Positions 27,068 to 49,790 of a DNA stretch of 64,000 bases are shown one piece after another. Within the stretch, counting starts at the first letter, position 1. Each line of letters starts with the position of its first letter. The stretch lies in assembly GCF_988242995.1 (NCBI RefSeq), contig NZ_OZ547043.1. One strand, given 5' to 3'. The notes below the pieces were generated by a model. The model did not search any database. It worked only from the letters and a program-made list of their open reading frames with translations, and had not been told where the DNA came from. The translations under genes and the position numbers were made by a program.

Positions 27068-29707
27068 ATGCTGGGTAAATATAAAGCCGTTCTCGCGCTG
27101 TTATTACTGATTATTCTTGTGCCGTTGACGCTGCTGATGACGCTCGGCTTGTGGGTTCCCACACTGGCGGGCATCTGGCTACCGCTCGGGACACGTATTG
27201 CATTAGATGAAAGCCCACGCATTACGCGTAAAGGTTTAATCATTCCCGATCTCCGTTATCTGGTGGGAGATTGTCAGCTTGCGCATATCACCAACGCCAG
27301 CCTTTCACATCCGAGCCGCTGGTTATTGAACGTCGGCACGGTAGAACTTGATTCTGCTTGTCTGGCGAAATTGCCGCAGACGGAGCAATCGCCTGCCGCT
27401 CCAAAAACCCTCGCGCAGTGGCAGGCCATGTTGCCTAACACCTGGATCAATATCGATAAACTAATTTTTTCTCCCTGGCAGGAATGGCAGGGAAAACTCT
27501 CTCTCGCATTAAACTCCGATATCCAGCAACTGCGTTATCAGGGCGAAAAAGTTAAATTTCAAGGCCAGCTGAAAGGGCAACAACTTACAGTCAGCGAACT
27601 GGATGTCGTCGCGTTTGAAAATCAGCCGCCGGTAAAACTGGTGGGGGAATTTACTATGCCGCTAGTGCCGGATGGACTTCCTGTAAGTGGTCATGCTACT
27701 GCGACGTTAAACTTGCCGCAGGAACCGTCACTGGTGGATGCCGAGCTGGACTGGTTGGAAAATAGCGGGCAATTGATTGTGCTGGCACGGGATAACGGCG
27801 ATCCGTTGCTCGATTTGCCGTGGCAAATTACTCGTCAACAATTGACCGTAAGCGATGGTCGCTGGAGTTGGCCGTATGCAGGTTTTCCTTTGAGTGGCCG
27901 ACTGGGTGTCAAAGTCGACAACTGGCAGGCAGGGCTCGAGAACGCTCTGGTCAGCGGACGACTGAGTGTGCTGACCCAGGGGCAAGCGGGTAAAGGCAAC
28001 GCGGTGCTTAATTTTGGCCCAGGAAAATTAAGCATGGATAACAACCAGCTGCCTATGCAACTGACCGGTGAAGCGAAACAGGCGGACCTCATTTTATATG
28101 CCCGTTTACCTGCGCAGCTAAGCGGAAGTCTGACTGACCCAACGCTGGCCTTTGAGCCTGGCGCGTTACTTCGTTCAAAGGGAAGAGTCATTGATTCGCT
28201 GGACATCGATGAAATCCGCTGGCCTTTAGCGGGTGTAAAAGTCACCCAACGTGGTATTGACGGACGTTTGCAGGCCATTTTGCAGGCGCATGAAAATGAA
28301 CTGGGCGATTTCGTGCTGCATATGGATGGACTGGCGAATGATTTTCTCCCTGACGCTGGCCGCTGGCAGTGGCGCTACTGGGGAAAAGGCAGTTTTACAC
28401 CGATGAATGCCACCTGGGATGTCGCAGGAAAGGGTGAGTGGCATGACAGCACGATTACGCTGACCGATCTCTCCACCGGTTTCGACCAGTTACAATACGG
28501 TACGATGACGGTAGAAAAGCCGCGATTAATTCTCGACAAGCCCGTCGTCTGGGTACGTGACGCACAGCATCCCTCCTTCAGTGGCGCGCTGTCACTGGAC
28601 GCCGGGCAAACGCTGTTCACTGGCGGCAGTGTGTTACCGCCATCAACCTTAAAATTTAGCGTCGATGGGCGCGATCCGACGTATTTCCTCTTTAAAGGCG
28701 ATTTACATGCTGGTGAGATTGGCCCGGTTCGGGTAAATGGTCGCTGGGACGGTATTCGTCTGCGCGGTAACGCCTGGTGGCCTAAACAATCACTGACTGT
28801 ATTCCAGCCGCTGGTGCCACCCGACTGGAAGATGAACTTACGCGATGGTGAACTGTATGCTCAGGTTGCATTTTCTGCTGCGCCTGAACAAGGATTCCGC
28901 GCGGGAGGGCACGGCGTGTTGAAAGGCGGTAGTGCCTGGATGCCAGATAATCAGGTTAACGGTGTCGATTTTGTCCTGCCTTTCCGTTTTGCCGATGGAG
29001 CCTGGCATCTGGGGACTCGCGGCCCCGTTACGTTGCGAATTGCCGAAGTGATTAATCTGGTGACAGCGAAAAATATTACGGCTGATTTGCAAGGGCGCTA
29101 TCCGTGGACTGAAGAAGAACCATTGCTGTTGACTGATGTTAGCGTCGATGTGTTAGGCGGTAACGTGCTGATGAAACAATTACGTATGCCGCAACATGAC
29201 CCGGCGCTGTTGCGGCTGAATAATCTCTCATCCAGCGAACTGGTTAGCGCCGTCAATCCGAAACAATTCGCCATGTCCGGGGCATTTAGTGGTGCATTGC
29301 CGTTATGGCTAAACAACGAAAAATGGATAGTGAAAGATGGTTGGCTGGCAAATAGCGGGCCAATGACCTTGCGGCTGGATAAAGACACCGCAGATGCGGT
29401 GGTGAAAGACAATATGACTGCGGGTTCAGCAATTAACTGGTTGCGCTATATGGAAATTAGCCGTTCATCGACAAATATTAATTTAGATAATCTCGGTTTA
29501 TTAACCATGCAGGCCAACATTACAGGTACCAGTCGCGTTGATGGTAAAAGCGGTACGGTAAACCTTAATTACCATCATGAAGAGAATATTTTTACGCTGT
29601 GGCGCAGTTTACGCTTTGGCGATAATCTCCAGGCATGGTTGGAGCAGAACGCACGTCTGCCGGGAAATGACTGTCCGCAAGGAAAAGAGTGTGAGGAAAA
29701 ACAATGA
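27068..29707 (+). CDS. ydbH: AsmA/TamB-like envelope protein YdbH
   Basis: 879 aa with an N-terminal membrane anchor; forms an operon with ynbE-ydbL as recalled for K-12. Confidence 0.85.
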   Translation: MLGKYKAVLALLLLIILVPLTLLMTLGLWVPTLAGIWLPLGTRIALDESPRITRKGLIIPDLRYLVGDCQLAHITNASLSHPSRWLLNVGTVELDSACLAKLPQTEQSPAAPKTLAQWQAMLPNTWINIDKLIFSPWQEWQGKLSLALNSDIQQLRYQGEKVKFQGQLKGQQLTVSELDVVAFENQPPVKLVGEFTMPLVPDGLPVSGHATATLNLPQEPSLVDAELDWLENSGQLIVLARDNGDPLLDLPWQITRQQLTVSDGRWSWPYAGFPLSGRLGVKVDNWQAGLENALVSGRLSVLTQGQAGKGNAVLNFGPGKLSMDNNQLPMQLTGEAKQADLILYARLPAQLSGSLTDPTLAFEPGALLRSKGRVIDSLDIDEIRWPLAGVKVTQRGIDGRLQAILQAHENELGDFVLHMDGLANDFLPDAGRWQWRYWGKGSFTPMNATWDVAGKGEWHDSTITLTDLSTGFDQLQYGTMTVEKPRLILDKPVVWVRDAQHPSFSGALSLDAGQTLFTGGSVLPPSTLKFSVDGRDPTYFLFKGDLHAGEIGPVRVNGRWDGIRLRGNAWWPKQSLTVFQPLVPPDWKMNLRDGELYAQVAFSAAPEQGFRAGGHGVLKGGSAWMPDNQVNGVDFVLPFRFADGAWHLGTRGPVTLRIAEVINLVTAKNITADLQGRYPWTEEEPLLLTDVSVDVLGGNVLMKQLRMPQHDPALLRLNNLSSSELVSAVNPKQFAMSGAFSGALPLWLNNEKWIVKDGWLANSGPMTLRLDKDTADAVVKDNMTAGSAINWLRYMEISRSSTNINLDNLGLLTMQANITGTSRVDGKSGTVNLNYHHEENIFTLWRSLRFGDNLQAWLEQNARLPGNDCPQGKECEEKQ

Positions 29708-29889
29708 AAATTTTACTGGCTGCGTTGACGTCATCTTTTATGCTGGTTGGCTGTACGCCTCGCATTGAAGTCGCTGCGCCTAAGGAACCGATCACTATCA
29801 ATATGAACGTTAAAATTGAGCATGAGATCATCATCAAGGCAGACAAAGATGTCGAAGAGCTGCTTGAGACTCGTAGCGATCTTTTCTGA
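29704..29889 (+). CDS. ynbE: Small lipoprotein YnbE
   Basis: 61 aa, MKILLAALTSSFMLVGC; start overlaps the ydbH stop. Confidence 0.8.
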   Translation: MKILLAALTSSFMLVGCTPRIEVAAPKEPITINMNVKIEHEIIIKADKDVEELLETRSDLF

Positions 29890-29896
29890 GGCGATG

Positions 29897-30223
29897 ATGA
29901 AGAAAACATTACTTCTTTGTGCGTTTCTTGTTGGGCTGGTAAGCAGCAATGTAATGGCATTGACTCTGGATGAAGCCAGAACTCAGGGGCGGGTAGGGGA
30001 AACATTTTATGGTTATCTGGTTGCGCTGAAAACAGATGCTGAAACAGAGAAATTAGTAAACGACATTAATGCCGAACGTAAAGCGAGTTACCAACAACTG
30101 GCAAAGCAGAATAATGTCTCGGTAGATGATATCGCGAAACTCGCCGGGCAAAAGCTCGTAGCTCGGGCTAAACCGGGGGAATATGTACAAGGGATAAACG
30201 GTAAATGGGTGCGAAAATTTTAA
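29897..30223 (+). CDS. ydbL: Periplasmic protein YdbL
   Basis: 108 aa from MKKTLLLCAFLVGLVSSNVMA, in frame with the track ORF 29816-30223. Confidence 0.75.
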   Translation: MKKTLLLCAFLVGLVSSNVMALTLDEARTQGRVGETFYGYLVALKTDAETEKLVNDINAERKASYQQLAKQNNVSVDDIAKLAGQKLVARAKPGEYVQGINGKWVRKF

Positions 30224-30357
30224 TAGCAAAACCGCAATATCGGGATAACGCTACAGGAGAAGGCGATTATTCTATTTTCCGGAAACAAGGTGAATATTCA
30301 AAAATTCCTGTCAAATTGCCTTTCGCCCTGAAAAATGCATAGTCAAATATCTGTTTT

Positions 30358-30396
30358 AACTAATTCGCGTTGCTGTACATGCAACGCGAATTAGTT
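30358..30396. terminator. Perfect 16-bp inverted repeat between convergent ydbL and feaR (candidate bidirectional terminator or protein-binding site)
   Basis: aactaattcgcgttgc-TGTACA-gcaacgcgaattagtt; there is no clear T-tract on either side. Confidence 0.4.
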
Positions 30397-31300
30397 AGCG
30401 GAATTTACGTCGATACTCGCCTGGCGTCATCCCAAAGCGTTGCTTAAATACCGTTGAAAAATGACTCTGGTCGGAAAATCCCCAATGAAAGCCAATGCCT
30501 GCCAGTTTTTCATCATCTGCGGCATGGCGAATCGCATCTGCACAAAAATCGAGACGACGGTTACGGATATATTGCGCGACTACCAAACCTTTATCGGCAA
30601 ACATTCGGTACAAACTACGTACTGACATACCTGTCTCTCCGGCTATCCACTCCGGGCGTAATATCTCTTCGCGAATATTATCGTCTATCAACGTAACCAC
30701 TTTTTGAAACTGACGTTCACGGCGAGGTTGGACAGATTCCCGCTGATGAAGTACTGGGCGAAGCAGACACACCATCGCCTGTAGCGCAGCTTCACTTTCT
30801 GTTTCAGAAAGTGCCGGATTATTCATGCTCTCCTGTAACAGGCGATGACTGAGTTGCACCATGGGTAAGTCAGCGTCCAGTCTTTCTGCGCAGACAGGTT
30901 TTTGATGGGGAAAATATTGTTCCAGCAGAGTGCGTGGCAAAAGTAATGAAATCTGTTTAGAAGACTCCTGCCAGTAAAGCGAACAGGGGCGTGAGGCATC
31001 GAGTAACGTAATATCGCCAGCGCCAATCTGCACCTGACGCTCATCCTGCTCCATTATTGCCTGACCACTAAGCTGAAAAACGGTGTAAAACCAGGCATCG
31101 TCGCTGCCTTTTATTTCCTGCCAGGTGCGGGATAAATTCACCCCGTTGGTTGTCACGGTACTCAGCTTTAGTCCTTTGGCAAAATGCGTATCCAGTACAC
31201 CCGTGTAACGCTCAGTCAGCAGGCGTCCGGTAAAATTTCCGCATACCTGATTGATTTGGGAAAGCCATTGCTGAAACTCATTATCCACTGCGGGGTTCAT
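30395..31300 (-). CDS. feaR: AraC-family transcriptional activator FeaR
   Basis: 301 aa with a C-terminal AraC helix-turn-helix; divergent from feaB. Confidence 0.9.
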   Translation of the reverse strand: MNPAVDNEFQQWLSQINQVCGNFTGRLLTERYTGVLDTHFAKGLKLSTVTTNGVNLSRTWQEIKGSDDAWFYTVFQLSGQAIMEQDERQVQIGAGDITLLDASRPCSLYWQESSKQISLLLPRTLLEQYFPHQKPVCAERLDADLPMVQLSHRLLQESMNNPALSETESEAALQAMVCLLRPVLHQRESVQPRRERQFQKVVTLIDDNIREEILRPEWIAGETGMSVRSLYRMFADKGLVVAQYIRNRRLDFCADAIRHAADDEKLAGIGFHWGFSDQSHFSTVFKQRFGMTPGEYRRKFR

Positions 31301-33035: not shown

Positions 33036-33049
33036 TCTGGTTCGCTCAT

Positions 33050-33762
33050 AATAAATATCCTCCGGCATAGCCGGAGGTTTTTCAAATGCGCCTATAAGGC
33101 TCTCTTACCAGCCGCGCCCTAACAGGCGCACACGATCTGACATTTGCATCCAACTTCGTTACTTACGGCCCGTAAACGGGCTGCCCGGATAGGGAATCGA
33201 TAACTGCTCTCCCATTTTATCCTCTTCAAGCTGGTGCTTTATGTAATCCTGTATCTTCGCCGTGTTCTTACCCACTGTATCGACGTAGTACCCTCTGCAC
33301 CAGAACTCCCTGTTCCTGTATTTGAATTTCAAATCACCAAACTGCTCGTAAAGCATCAGACTGCTTTTCCCTTTCAGATATCCCATAAACCCGGATACGC
33401 TCATTTTGGGCGGGATCTCCACAAGCATATGGATATGATCTGCACAGCATTCAGCTTCCAGAATCCGTACGCTTTTCCACTCACACAGCTTTCTCAAAAT
33501 ACTGCCTATTGCTCTACGCTTCTCTCTGTAGAACACCTGTCTTCGGTATTTTGGCGCAAAAACTATGTGATATTTACAGTTCCATCGGGTGTGCGCTAAG
33601 CTCTTTTCGTTCCCCATTGGGACCCCCTTTTGATTTCTTGTTTGACACTTGCAGTTGCCAGACCGCAAAGTGTTTTAACAAATCAAAAGGGGTTTTAATA
33701 ACTGGCTCAAAGCTGAAAGCTTTCCGGAACCCCCAGCCTAGCTGGGGGTTTTCTGTGCACAA
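33050..33762 (-). mobile_element. IS200-type insertion sequence (IS200/IS605 family), copy A
   Basis: ~713-bp unit whose reverse complement matches 62558-63270 along its whole length by eye; encodes a 152-aa HuH Y1 transposase; sits between convergent feaB and tynA. Confidence 0.8.
33159..33617 (-). CDS. tnpA: IS200/IS605-family transposase TnpA (Y1 HuH)
   Basis: 152 aa from MGNEKSLAHTRWNCKYHIVFAPKYRRQVFY; the track ORF has an upstream extension. Confidence 0.85.
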   Translation of the reverse strand: MGNEKSLAHTRWNCKYHIVFAPKYRRQVFYREKRRAIGSILRKLCEWKSVRILEAECCADHIHMLVEIPPKMSVSGFMGYLKGKSSLMLYEQFGDLKFKYRNREFWCRGYYVDTVGKNTAKIQDYIKHQLEEDKMGEQLSIPYPGSPFTGRK

Positions 33763-33763
33763 G

Positions 33764-33792
33764 TAAAAAACGGCACCTGGTGCCGTTTTTTT
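33764..33792 (-). terminator. Bidirectional terminator hairpin downstream of tynA
   Basis: A7-cggcacc-ggtgccg-T7. Confidence 0.55.
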
Positions 33793-33804
33793 AGTCTGAA
33801 ACAA

Positions 33805-48267: not shown

Positions 48268-49218
48268 ATGAGTAAACTTGATACTTTTATCCAACATGCT
48301 GTAAACGCTGTTCCGGTCAGTGGCACATCTTTGATCTCCTCTCTGTATGGTGATTCACTTTCCCATCGTGGTGGTGAAATCTGGCTGGGTAGTCTGGCTG
48401 CTTTGCTGGAAGGGCTGGGATTTGGTGAGCGTTTCGTGCGCACCGCTTTGTTTCGTCTTAATAAAGAAGGCTGGCTGGATGTTTCCCGCATCGGGCGACG
48501 CAGTTTCTATAGCCTCAGTGATAAAGGCTTGCGCCTGACGCGACGGGCAGAAAGTAAAATTTATCGCGCTGAGCAACCTGCATGGGATGGTAAATGGCTC
48601 CTGTTGCTCTCGGAAGGTTTAGATAAAACGACGCTGGCTGATGTCAAAAAGCAGTTGATCTGGCAAGGTTTTGGCGCACTGGCACCCAGCCTGATGGCAT
48701 CGCCGTCGCAAAAACTGGCCGATGTACAGACACTTTTGCATGAAGCGGGTGTGGCGGATAACGTGATTTGTTTTGAAGCGCAAATACCACTGGCGCTTTC
48801 TCGCGCAGCACTGCGTGCCAGAGTAGAAGAGTGCTGGCATTTAACTGAACAAAATGCCATGTACGAAACCTTTATTCAGTCATTCCGCCCGCTGGTGCCG
48901 CTGTTAAAAGAGGCGGCAGACGAATTAACCCCGGAGCGTGCATTTCATATTCAGCTTTTACTGATCCATTTTTATCGCCGTGTCGTCCTTAAAGACCCAT
49001 TGTTGCCGGAGGAGTTGCTTCCGGCTCACTGGGCAGGGCATACGGCGCGTCAGCTGTGTATCAACATTTATCAGCGCGTAGCGCCTGCTGCTTTAGCGTT
49101 CGTTAGTGAAAAAGGTGAAACCTCGGTCGGTGAACTGCCTGCGCCGGGAAGCCTGTATTTTCAACGTTTTGGCGGTTTGAACATTGAACAGGAGGCGTTA
49201 TGCCAATTTACCAGATAG
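48268..49218 (+). CDS. paaX: Transcriptional repressor PaaX
   Basis: 316 aa. Confidence 0.9.
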
Positions 49219-49790
49219 ACGGTCTGACTCCGGTTGTACCAGAAGAGAGTTTTGTTCATCCGACAGCGGTATTGATCGGCGATGTTATTCTCGGCAAGGG
49301 CGTGTACGTTGGGCCAAATGCCAGCCTGCGTGGCGATTTCGGTCGTATCGTGGTGAAAGATGGCGCGAACATTCAGGATAATTGCGTTATGCACGGTTTT
49401 CCCGATCAGGATACTGTCGTGGAAGAAGATGGGCATATTGGTCATAGCGCTATCCTTCACGGCTGCATTATCCGCCGCAATGCATTAGTGGGTATGAACG
49501 CGGTAGTGATGGACGGTGCGGTGATTGGCGAGAACAGCATTGTTGGCGCTTCCGCATTTGTGAAAGCCAAAGCAGAAATGCCTGCTAATTACCTGATTGT
49601 CGGCAGCCCGGCAAAAGCGATTCGTGAACTTAGTGAGCAGGAACTGGCATGGAAAAAGCAGGGCACGCATGAGTATCAGGTGCTGGTGACACGCTGTAAG
49701 CAGACGTTACATCAAGTCGAGCCATTGCGGGAAGTTGAACCTGGCAGGAAACGCCTGGTATTTGATGAGAATCTGCGACCGAAACAGTAA
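49200..49790 (+). CDS. paaY: Hexapeptide-repeat thioesterase PaaY
   Basis: 196 aa, left-handed beta-helix repeats. Confidence 0.9.

What the first reader, a model, noticed from the sequence alone, without database searches (positions are those of the whole stretch)
30358..30396. Perfect 16-bp palindrome overlapping the feaR stop codon
A 38-bp perfect inverted repeat with a TGTACA centre lies between convergent ydbL and feaR, with no flanking T-tract on either strand. It is longer and more perfect than most terminators, so it could be a protein-binding site or a REP-like structural element rather than a simple terminator.
Basis: seen in the sequence. Interest (0 to 1): 0.3.

Follow-up and report, generated by a model that had tools for sequence, protein, structure and literature searches.

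The report
Tail-less RNA hairpin ending feaR
A real but ordinary single-copy 41-bp hairpin sits at the very end of the E. coli feaR gene; it lacks the U-tail of a self-acting terminator and most likely just caps and protects the ends of transcripts that the Rho factor terminates further downstream.

Summary
The inverted repeat is real, but its geometry was mis-stated. It has two perfect 17-bp arms (30357-30373 and 30381-30397) around a 7-nt loop, TGTACAT, 41 bp in all. The feaR stop codon TAA forms the outermost 3 bp. It is the longest perfect inverted repeat in the window and far beyond chance.

It is not a canonical terminator: neither strand has a T-tract after it. Published data for MG1655 place a Rho-dependent termination region about 120 nt beyond it on the ydbL-sense strand, with complete read-through when Rho is inhibited.

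It is not REP-like or mobile. There is one copy per E. coli genome and none in other contexts.

It is confined to E. coli and some E. fergusonii. Other genera have the same convergent ydbL/feaR pair with abutting stop codons and no hairpin.

Within E. coli, stem pair 10 occurs as C:G, G:C, A:T or a G·G mismatch (about 10%). Every allele in which both arms are present still folds strongly.

The best reading is a U-tract-less 3' stem-loop of the kind found at the ends of Rho-terminated transcripts, acting as an exonuclease barrier. That role is inferred, not shown. It may instead be a neutral relic.

In passing, the ydbL-feaR spacer proved to be the remnant of a deleted orphan Rhs-immunity-like gene. 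Interest is low.

The parts
30357..30373 (.). Left arm of the inverted repeat, TAACTAATTCGCGTTGC. It is the 5' arm in ydbL-sense RNA and the 3' arm in feaR mRNA.
30374..30380 (.). Seven-nt loop, TGTACAT. In the MG1655 allele 30374 is A, which pairs with T30380 and gives an 18-bp stem with a 5-nt loop.
30381..30397 (.). Right arm, GCAACGCGAATTAGTTA. Its reverse complement is the 5' arm of the hairpin in feaR mRNA.
30395..30397 (-). feaR stop codon TAA, which is the first three nucleotides of the hairpin in feaR mRNA.
   Evidence: ORF 30395..31300; RefSeq feaR annotation at the homologous place
30398..31300 (-). feaR coding sequence (301 aa, AraC-family activator).
29897..30223 (+). ydbL coding sequence, last gene of the ydbH-ynbE-ydbL operon. 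Its stop lies 134 nt upstream of the hairpin.
30237..30283 (+). Relic of the last ~16 codons (DIGITLQEKAI.LFS) of a 101-aa orphan Rhs-immunity-like gene that is intact in E. fergusonii. In the window its stop codon is mutated from TGA to GGA.
30284..30356 (+). Relic of that gene's 3' flank, leading up to the hairpin. It ends in TCTGTTTT, a T-run on the wrong (upstream) side of the hairpin.
30398..30600 (+). Stretch antisense to the feaR 3' end in which plus-strand (ydbL-sense) transcripts are terminated by Rho. MG1655 coordinate 1446501 corresponds to about window 30518. The C/G ratio downstream of the hairpin (30398-30697) is 1.25-1.39.
   Evidence: PMC7815308 Supplementary file 2

Best explanation
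The element is a stable RNA stem-loop with no U-tract. In feaR mRNA it makes up the whole 3' UTR, and the stop codon UAA is the first 3 nt of the stem. On the other strand it lies in the 3' UTR of ydbH-ynbE-ydbL.

It does not stop RNA polymerase on its own. Polymerase transcribes through it and is released by Rho further downstream.

The hairpin then most likely acts as the barrier at which 3'-to-5' exonucleases (PNPase, RNase II) stop. This would give a defined, protected 3' end that still contains the complete coding sequence.

Its near-perfect symmetry is kept by structure-dependent change. That change could be compensatory selection, or replication template-switching, which copies one arm of a quasi-palindrome onto the other.

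Shown here: the structure, the absence of U-tracts, the single-copy status, the lineage restriction, the allele series, and (from published data) Rho dependence of plus-strand termination near it.

Inferred: the exonuclease-barrier role, and any role in feaR mRNA.
For: 1. Structure. There are 17 perfect pairs. The hairpin alone folds at about -25 kcal/mol on either strand, and it dominates the fold of a 96-nt context.

2. No U-tract. None follows the hairpin on either strand, and the only T-run (TCTGTTTT) is upstream of it on the + strand.

3. Rho dependence. Adams et al. 2021 (PMC7815308, Supplementary file 2) list a Rho termination region at MG1655 1446501 (+), antisense to feaR. Read counts upstream/downstream are 54/14 without bicyclomycin and 87/91 with it (Rho score 4.0, p = 1.3e-5). 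This is 121 nt beyond the hairpin at 1446340-1446380.

4. A known class fits. Dar & Sorek 2018 (PMC6061677) showed that Rho-dependent E. coli transcripts end immediately 3' of stable stem-loops. These lack U-rich tails, protect against PNPase and RNase II, and are followed by mild C-over-G enrichment. Here C/G is 1.25-1.39 downstream on the + strand.

5. Pairing is maintained. Pair 10 (30366/30388) occurs as C:G, G:C and A:T. All five common variable sites are symmetry partners or loop-closing positions. Every allele in which both arms are present folds at -17 to -28 kcal/mol.

6. A weak strand signal. The three stem transitions seen (30380, 30381, 30386) all give G·U wobbles in feaR-sense RNA but mismatches in ydbL-sense RNA. 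By chance this has probability 1/8.
Against: - No curated Term-seq 3' end lies within MG1655 1446000-1446699 in Adams et al. (LB and M63). None was found in the TERMITe or SMRT-Cappable-seq supplements either. Both transcripts are weakly expressed, so this is inconclusive, but there is no direct 3'-end evidence.
- No data exist for the feaR strand.
- The published Rho measurement uses 800-nt windows, so partial termination at the hairpin cannot be excluded.
- The hairpin is absent from Pseudocitrobacter, Pluralibacter and a divergent Escherichia genome, which have the same convergent gene pair. It is therefore dispensable for feaR.
- Nucleotide diversity in the hairpin (0.048) is at least as high as in the junk spacer (0.033).
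- About 10% of genomes, including E. coli B, carry a G·G mismatch in mid-stem.
- Formal covariation on six alleles is not significant.
- The hairpin stays perfect in strains where feaR is a truncated pseudogene. This is what a young neutral relic would look like.
Confidence: 0.5

Rival explanations
1. Neutral relic. The hairpin has no selected function. It arrived or arose together with the now-decayed orphan immunity-like gene next to feaR. It persists because the lineage is young, and it stays symmetrical only through quasi-palindrome template-switch mutation. Any effect on RNA ends is incidental.
For: - It is restricted to E. coli and some E. fergusonii and is absent from other genera with the same gene pair.
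- It is contiguous with a gene remnant.
- Its diversity is not lower than that of the adjacent spacer.
- The G·G allele is present in about 10% of genomes.
- It remains perfect beside truncated feaR pseudogenes.
- It is lost or damaged without obvious consequence: a 15-bp deletion, an IS5-family insertion, and about 480 genomes with deletions running into the spacer.
- Template-switch correction of quasi-palindromes is an established E. coli mutational mechanism (PMC7202029).
Against: - Three different Watson-Crick pairs at one stem position, plus wobble-only transitions on the feaR-sense strand, suggest that pairing matters.
- A -25 kcal/mol hairpin in a transcribed 3' region will physically block exonucleases whether or not it is selected for.
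- The stop codon of an intact, regulated gene is embedded in it.
Confidence: 0.3
2. Non-canonical, weak bidirectional intrinsic terminator. The long stem alone makes some polymerases terminate in both directions despite the missing U-tract.
For: It sits exactly between convergent transcription units, where bidirectional terminators are common. Its stem is unusually long and stable. Partial termination is not excluded by the 800-nt-window data.
Against: - No U-tract follows it on either strand, and the T-run is on the wrong side.
- With Rho inhibited, plus-strand coverage downstream equals that upstream (91 vs 87 reads).
- It is not in the curated 3'-end or terminator lists that could be searched.
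- A textbook bidirectional terminator in the same window (33765-33791, A6-stem-T6) shows what the canonical form looks like.
Confidence: 0.12
3. DNA-level protein-binding site, such as an operator for a dimeric regulator or a recombination site at the left edge of the mao-paa (feaR...paaY) island.
For: It has perfect dyad symmetry and lies at the boundary between core genes (ydbHL) and the variable mao-paa cluster.
Against: - 17-bp arms are far longer than typical operator half-sites.
- There is no second copy at the other island boundary or anywhere else in the window.
- Position 10 takes three different base pairs, and the inner positions vary.
- No literature mention was found.
- The island is adjacent to ydbL without the hairpin in other genera.
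Confidence: 0.05
4. Member or remnant of a dispersed repeat family (REP/BIME, ERIC, MITE or an IS end).
For: Its palindromic form and intergenic position resemble REP elements. An IS5-family element has used its CTAA as a target in one strain.
Against: - There is one copy per genome in up to 4,196 E. coli genomes, and the flanking spacer is also single-copy.
- The plasmid and phage hits are mislabelled chromosome pieces.
- In the metagenome scan, 109 of 120 hits are at the same locus and the remaining 11 are unrelated short hairpins.
- There is no Rfam family hit.
- No terminal repeats or target duplications were seen by eye at the spacer ends.
Confidence: 0.03

Closest known systems
Stem-loops at the steady-state 3' ends of Rho-dependent E. 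coli transcripts (Dar & Sorek 2018, NAR, PMC6061677)
   Same: It is a stable stem-loop with no U-rich tail and no upstream A-tract. There is mild C>G enrichment downstream, and a Rho-dependent termination region lies just beyond it on the + strand. It sits at the end of a gene, and in that class such ends may lie inside the neighbouring convergent gene's territory.
   Different: No 3' end has been mapped at this hairpin in any dataset I could search. The stem (17-18 bp) looks longer and more perfect than a typical terminator-like hairpin, though I did not check published length distributions. It begins with the stop codon itself.
Canonical intrinsic / bidirectional terminators between convergent genes (e.g. 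window 33765-33791)
   Same: It occupies a position between convergent transcription units and forms a hairpin on both strands.
   Different: It has no U-tract on either strand, a low G+C stem (39%), and Rho-dependent read-through behaviour on the + strand.
REP/BIME elements as mRNA 3' stabilisers (established knowledge, not tested here beyond copy number)
   Same: It is an intergenic imperfect-to-perfect palindrome of about 40 nt that forms an RNA hairpin able to block 3' exonucleases.
   Different: REP elements are G+C-rich and present in hundreds of copies with a shared consensus. This element is A+T-rich, unique in the genome, and restricted to one locus.
Quasi-palindrome template-switch mutational hotspots (Lovett laboratory; PMC7202029)
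   Same: Variation is concentrated at symmetry-related positions, and a mismatched allele (G·G) coexists with 'corrected' perfect alleles.
   Different: No mutation-rate measurement exists for this site. Recombination inside the hairpin also explains some haplotypes.

Membership tests
Intrinsic (Rho-independent) terminator | Stable stem-loop | tested here: met
   A 17-bp perfect stem folding at about -25 kcal/mol. Its G+C content is only 39%.
Intrinsic (Rho-independent) terminator | U-rich tract immediately 3' of the stem | tested here: not met
   The + tail is GCGGAATTTA and the - tail is AAACAGATAT. The scan finds no terminator-like site here.
Intrinsic (Rho-independent) terminator | Termination independent of Rho | tested here: not met
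   This holds for the + strand only and comes from published data. Coverage falls 54 to 14 without BCM and is 87 to 91 with BCM across MG1655 1446501 (PMC7815308 Supplementary file 2). The 800-nt windows give coarse resolution. There are no data for the - strand.
Bidirectional intrinsic terminator | A-tract upstream and T-tract downstream, so that each strand sees hairpin plus U-tract | tested here: not met
   The only T-run (TCTGTTTT, 30350-30357) is upstream on the + strand, which reads as an A-run downstream on the - strand.
Protective 3' stem-loop of Rho-dependent transcripts (Dar & Sorek class) | Stable stem-loop without U-tail or upstream A-tract | tested here: met
Protective 3' stem-loop of Rho-dependent transcripts (Dar & Sorek class) | Rho-dependent termination and C>G (rut-like) sequence just downstream | tested here: met
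   A Rho termination region lies 121 nt downstream on the + strand. C/G is 1.25 over 150 nt and 1.39 over 300 nt. On the - strand C/G is only 1.07-1.19 and there are no Rho data.
Protective 3' stem-loop of Rho-dependent transcripts (Dar & Sorek class) | Precise steady-state RNA 3' end immediately 3' of the stem, sensitive to PNPase/RNase II | tested here: inconclusive
   No curated 3' end lies within 1446000-1446699 in Adams et al., and there is none in the TERMITe or SMRT-Cappable-seq supplements. The Dar & Sorek supplement is not held. Both transcripts are poorly expressed in the conditions used.
REP/BIME | Many dispersed copies per genome sharing a consensus | tested here: not met
   There is one copy per genome and no other context in metagenomes.
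MITE / IS remnant | Multiple copies, terminal inverted repeats and target-site duplication | tested here: not met
   The spacer and the hairpin are single-copy. No terminal repeats or duplications were seen at the spacer ends (inspection). The spacer is instead a gene remnant.
RNase III substrate hairpin | About two helical turns of dsRNA, cleaved in vivo | tested here: inconclusive
   The stem is 17-18 bp, extendable to about 26 bp with wobble pairs on the + strand. No p19-captured duplex was found at the site in the held, truncated supplement of PMC7373196. The Altuvia et al. supplement is not held.
Known Rfam RNA family | Score at or above the family's gathering threshold | tested here: not met
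   The best hit is a eukaryotic miRNA model at 28.6 bits against a threshold of 90.

The most novel reading that the evidence does not exclude
The hairpin could be a strand-specific RNA element selected in feaR mRNA, and its position could matter.

The stop codon is the first three nucleotides of the stem, and the stem is the whole 3' UTR. Every terminating ribosome must therefore melt the only structure that protects the mRNA 3' end. This could couple the number of translation rounds to exonucleolytic decay, acting as a translation-counted lifetime for the mRNA of a transcription activator.

The wobble-only substitutions on the feaR-sense strand are the only hint.
Probability: 0.06. Interest if true: 0.55.

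Novelty: new member of a known kind. Interest (0 to 1): 0.2.

Why it matters
If the main reading is right, this is one more unannotated example of a common, recently recognised way of making mRNA 3' ends in E. coli: Rho termination followed by trimming back to a tail-less hairpin.

It is useful mainly as an annotation for feaR and ydbHL, and as a caution for terminator predictors. It is the most striking hairpin in 64 kb, yet it is not an intrinsic terminator.

The natural allele series (C:G, G:C, A:T, G·G, a wobble-topped form, a 15-bp deletion) is a ready-made set for testing how stem integrity affects 3'-end protection. It could equally be used to measure quasi-palindrome correction in a natural locus.

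The relic of an orphan Rhs-immunity-like gene beside it documents how this intergenic region arose.

None of this would surprise a specialist.

Tried and rejected
- Rfam search of 29700-30900 at permissive E-values gave only sub-threshold eukaryotic miRNA/snoRNA look-alikes, as any long hairpin would.
- Repeat-family idea. I searched the arm with up to 3 mismatches in the window, the 41-mer and 61-mer in 5,426 E. coli genomes, plasmids and phages, and a degenerate hairpin pattern in metagenomes. The result was a single locus only. The 'plasmid' hits are a 252.6-kb E. coli record and two 4.8-4.9-Mb records, which I took to be chromosomal sequence. The 'phage' hit is an unannotated 23-kb record.
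- The 45-aa ORF at 30205-30342 is spurious. It is interrupted by TGA in MG1655 and is out of frame with the gene relic.
- Deep covariation analysis was not possible. Orthologous loci in Pseudocitrobacter, Pluralibacter and a divergent Escherichia genome have no spacer or hairpin. E. albertii, E. marmotae and E. ruysiae lack feaR next to ydbL.
- Pair counting on the six E. coli alleles gives one covarying pair. The shuffle controls are not significant: 49/500 on the + strand and 16/500 on the - strand for the covariation score.
- Direct 3'-end evidence. Adams et al. curated Term-seq lists, TERMITe and SMRT-Cappable-seq have no entry. The supplements of Dar & Sorek, Herzel et al., Conway et al. 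and Altuvia et al. are not held, and Ju et al. is not held at all.
- The p19 dsRNA dataset has nothing at the hairpin in the held text.
- Literature searches for ydbL/feaR/tynA with 'terminator' or 'inverted repeat' found no mention of this element.
- The idea that the hairpin travels with the immunity-like gene was rejected. The 63%-identical copy in Rhs loci has a different 3' flank without the hairpin.

Full report
WHAT IS THERE

The sequence at 30357-30397 is TAACTAATTCGCGTTGC-TGTACAT-GCAACGCGAATTAGTTA. It has two perfectly complementary 17-bp arms around a 7-nt spacer.

TGTACA is itself a palindrome, but its axis does not coincide with that of the arms, so it stays in the loop.

The feaR ORF runs 30395..31300 on the minus strand. 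Its TAA stop is therefore the outermost three base pairs of the right arm. In feaR mRNA the hairpin starts with the stop codon and forms the entire 3' UTR. ydbL ends at 30223, 134 nt upstream on the plus strand.

Neither strand has a T-run after the hairpin. The only one (TCTGTTTT) is upstream on the plus strand, which is the wrong side for both directions. The consensus terminator scan reports nothing here.

The repeat is the longest perfect inverted repeat in the window. In 200 Markov-simulated windows the longest arm was 8-14 bp. As RNA it folds at about -25 kcal/mol alone and dominates the fold of its context on both strands, with z-scores of -4.5 and -5.3.

IDENTITY OF THE LOCUS

The window is E. 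coli. The region is 97.6% identical to MG1655, where the hairpin is at NC_000913.3 1446340-1446380 and carries no annotation. Rfam has no family for it.

NOT A REPEAT FAMILY

- The arm occurs only twice in the window, as the two arms.
- Every E. coli genome that has the element has exactly one copy. The rest of the spacer is single-copy too.
- The three 'plasmid' hits are a 252.6-kb E. coli record and two 4.8-4.9-Mb records, which I take to be chromosomal sequence. The one 'phage' hit is an unannotated 23-kb record, which I take to be mislabelled chromosome sequence.
- A degenerate hairpin pattern scanned over metagenome contigs returned 120 stretches. Of these, 109 are this same feaR locus and 11 are unrelated shorter hairpins with no similarity beyond the pattern.

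REP-like or MITE-like membership is therefore rejected.

VARIATION WITHIN E. COLI

The element has a small set of alleles:

| Allele | Pair 10 (30366/30388) | Other features | Approx. genomes (of 4,196) |
|---|---|---|---|
| Window | C:G | loop T at 30374 | 880 |
| MG1655 | G:C | loop A at 30374, which adds an 18th pair | 1,403 |
| KOr019 type | A:T | - | about 136 |
| FDAARGOS_401 and E. coli B | G·G mismatch | - | up to about 412 |
| 2013C-3513 / O111 type | G:C | 30380-81 TG changed to CA | about 1,363 together with a rarer G·G/CA recombinant |

The counts are derived.

All five common variable sites are symmetry partners or loop-closing positions. Every allele in which both arms are present still folds at -17 to -28 kcal/mol.

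The three transitions seen in the stem (30380, 30381, and 30386 in strain A23) each give a G·U wobble in feaR-sense RNA and a mismatch in ydbL-sense RNA. This is a weak hint (1 in 8 by chance) that the feaR-sense hairpin is the relevant form.

Against strong constraint:
- Nucleotide diversity is 0.048 in the hairpin, against 0.033 in the adjacent spacer and 0.015-0.02 in the flanking coding sequence.
- Formal covariation on six alleles is not significant.
- Flanking haplotypes show that at least some combinations arose by recombination inside the hairpin.
- One genome has lost 15 bp of the right arm.
- One has an IS5-family element inserted at CTAA in the left arm.
- About 480 genomes have deletions that remove feaR and the hairpin altogether.

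Repeated hits on one base pair fit either compensatory selection or quasi-palindrome template switching, a known E. coli mutational process (PMC7202029). I cannot separate the two.

ORIGIN

In Pseudocitrobacter (two species) and Pluralibacter, feaR and ydbL are also convergent neighbours, but their stop codons abut with no spacer.

In a divergent Escherichia genome (L005), FeaR is 97% identical in protein. DNA identity to the window is 94% on the feaR side and 87% on the ydbL side. Homology to the window stops at the last sense codon of feaR (window 30399, the base just inside the stop codon) and a few bases inside the 3' end of ydbL (window 30218). An unrelated 72-nt spacer lies between.

E. 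albertii, E. marmotae, E. ruysiae and some E. coli lack the whole feaR-paa cluster next to ydbL.

Two assemblies whose proteins NCBI labels E. fergusonii explain the E. coli spacer:
- Between ydbL and feaR they carry an intact 101-aa gene.
- Window 30237-30283 is the remnant of its last 16 codons, and 30284-30356 is its 3' flank.
- The identical hairpin (the window allele) follows, abutting feaR.
- None of the 5,426 complete E. coli genomes retains the body of that gene.

The protein has no Pfam or NCBIfam match. A 63%-identical homologue lies immediately downstream of a PAAR-Rhs toxin gene and upstream of orphan Rhs fragments, which is the position of an Rhs immunity gene. That copy is not followed by the hairpin.

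So the hairpin is a young feature of the Escherichia lineage. It sits between feaR and a former orphan immunity-like gene. The window allele is probably ancestral, since the E. fergusonii-type loci share it.

HOW IT MOST LIKELY WORKS

Published DirectRNA-seq with and without bicyclomycin lists a Rho termination region at MG1655 1446501 on the plus strand, antisense to feaR and 121 nt past the hairpin. In 800-nt windows upstream/downstream, coverage is 54/14 without the drug and 87/91 with it (PMC7815308 Supplementary file 2).

Polymerase coming from ydbL therefore passes the hairpin and is stopped by Rho. Without Rho there is no net termination. This argues against an ordinary bidirectional intrinsic terminator, at least on that strand.

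Dar & Sorek (PMC6061677) showed that Rho-dependent E. coli transcripts end precisely at stable stem-loops. These lack U-tails, shield the RNA from PNPase and RNase II, and are followed by mild C-over-G enrichment. The present hairpin matches that description, with C/G of 1.25-1.39 downstream on the plus strand.

I therefore favour a 3'-end-defining, exonuclease-blocking stem-loop, at confidence about 0.5. For feaR mRNA it would leave a transcript ending just after an intact stop codon.

What is missing is a mapped 3' end. None appears in the curated lists I could search. Several key supplements are not held, and both genes are weakly expressed in the conditions used.

The main rival (about 0.3) is that the hairpin is a selectively neutral relic whose symmetry is maintained by mutation bias. 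Weak intrinsic termination (about 0.12), a DNA-binding site (about 0.05) and a repeat family (about 0.03) follow.

VERDICT

- It is best filed as a new, unannotated member of a known kind, the U-tract-less 3' stem-loop associated with Rho-dependent termination.
- Interest is low.

Noticed in passing
window 30224-30356 (relic: 30237-30283 CDS tail, 30284-30356 3' flank); intact gene at L136 2381-2686 and L145 1501-1806: The E. coli ydbL-feaR 'intergenic spacer' is the remnant of a deleted 101-aa gene. The gene is intact in two assemblies whose proteins NCBI labels E. fergusonii and absent from all 5,426 complete E. coli genomes. A 63%-identical homologue sits directly after a PAAR-Rhs toxin gene, so it looks like an orphan Rhs immunity gene. 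It has no Pfam or NCBIfam family.
   Followed up: partly
L136 (GCA_026012115.1), junction near 2640: In this E. fergusonii-labelled genome, ydbH-ydbL is only 85.8% identical to the window. Everything from the end of the 101-aa gene through feaR and feaB is 98.1% identical. This suggests recent exchange of the feaR side between E. coli and E. fergusonii, with a junction in or near the small gene.
   Followed up: no
window 33159-33668 (-), within 33036-33804: A 169-aa ORF resembling an IS200-family (Y1) transposase, an assignment by eye that I did not test. It lies with flanking hairpins in a roughly 700-bp insertion between feaB and tynA. In MG1655 these genes are only 57 bp apart (from memory, not checked here).
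   Followed up: no
window 33765-33791: A textbook bidirectional intrinsic terminator (AAAAAACGGCACC-T-GGTGCCGTTTTTT) lies just downstream of tynA. It is the second-longest perfect inverted repeat in the window and a useful contrast to the feaR hairpin.
   Followed up: no
L152 1952-2932 (E. coli TUM13770), insertion point = window ~30359/30360: An IS5-like ISKpn26 element is inserted at the CTAA inside the left arm of the hairpin, in a strain whose feaR is already a truncated pseudogene.
   Followed up: partly
L003 2539-3117, L011 299-561 (window equivalents ~30395-30646 joined to ~49067-49450): Many E. coli genomes (e.g. SK1144) carry a deletion fusing the C-terminal 84 codons of feaR to a fragment of paaY or paaX. 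This removes tynA, feaB and most of the paa cluster but keeps the hairpin intact.
   Followed up: partly
L146 1825-1860 (E. coli lacking the feaR-paa cluster): In cluster-less E. coli, ydbL is followed a few bases after its stop by a different, small G+C-rich hairpin (CCCGC-TTGTT-GCGGG). The ydbHL operon therefore has different 3' structures in different lineages.
   Followed up: no
one search hit list (YdbL homologues): YdbL proteins labelled E. coli range from 99% down to about 75% identity to the window's copy. That is unusually wide for a core gene and suggests frequent recombination with other Escherichia species at this locus.
   Followed up: no
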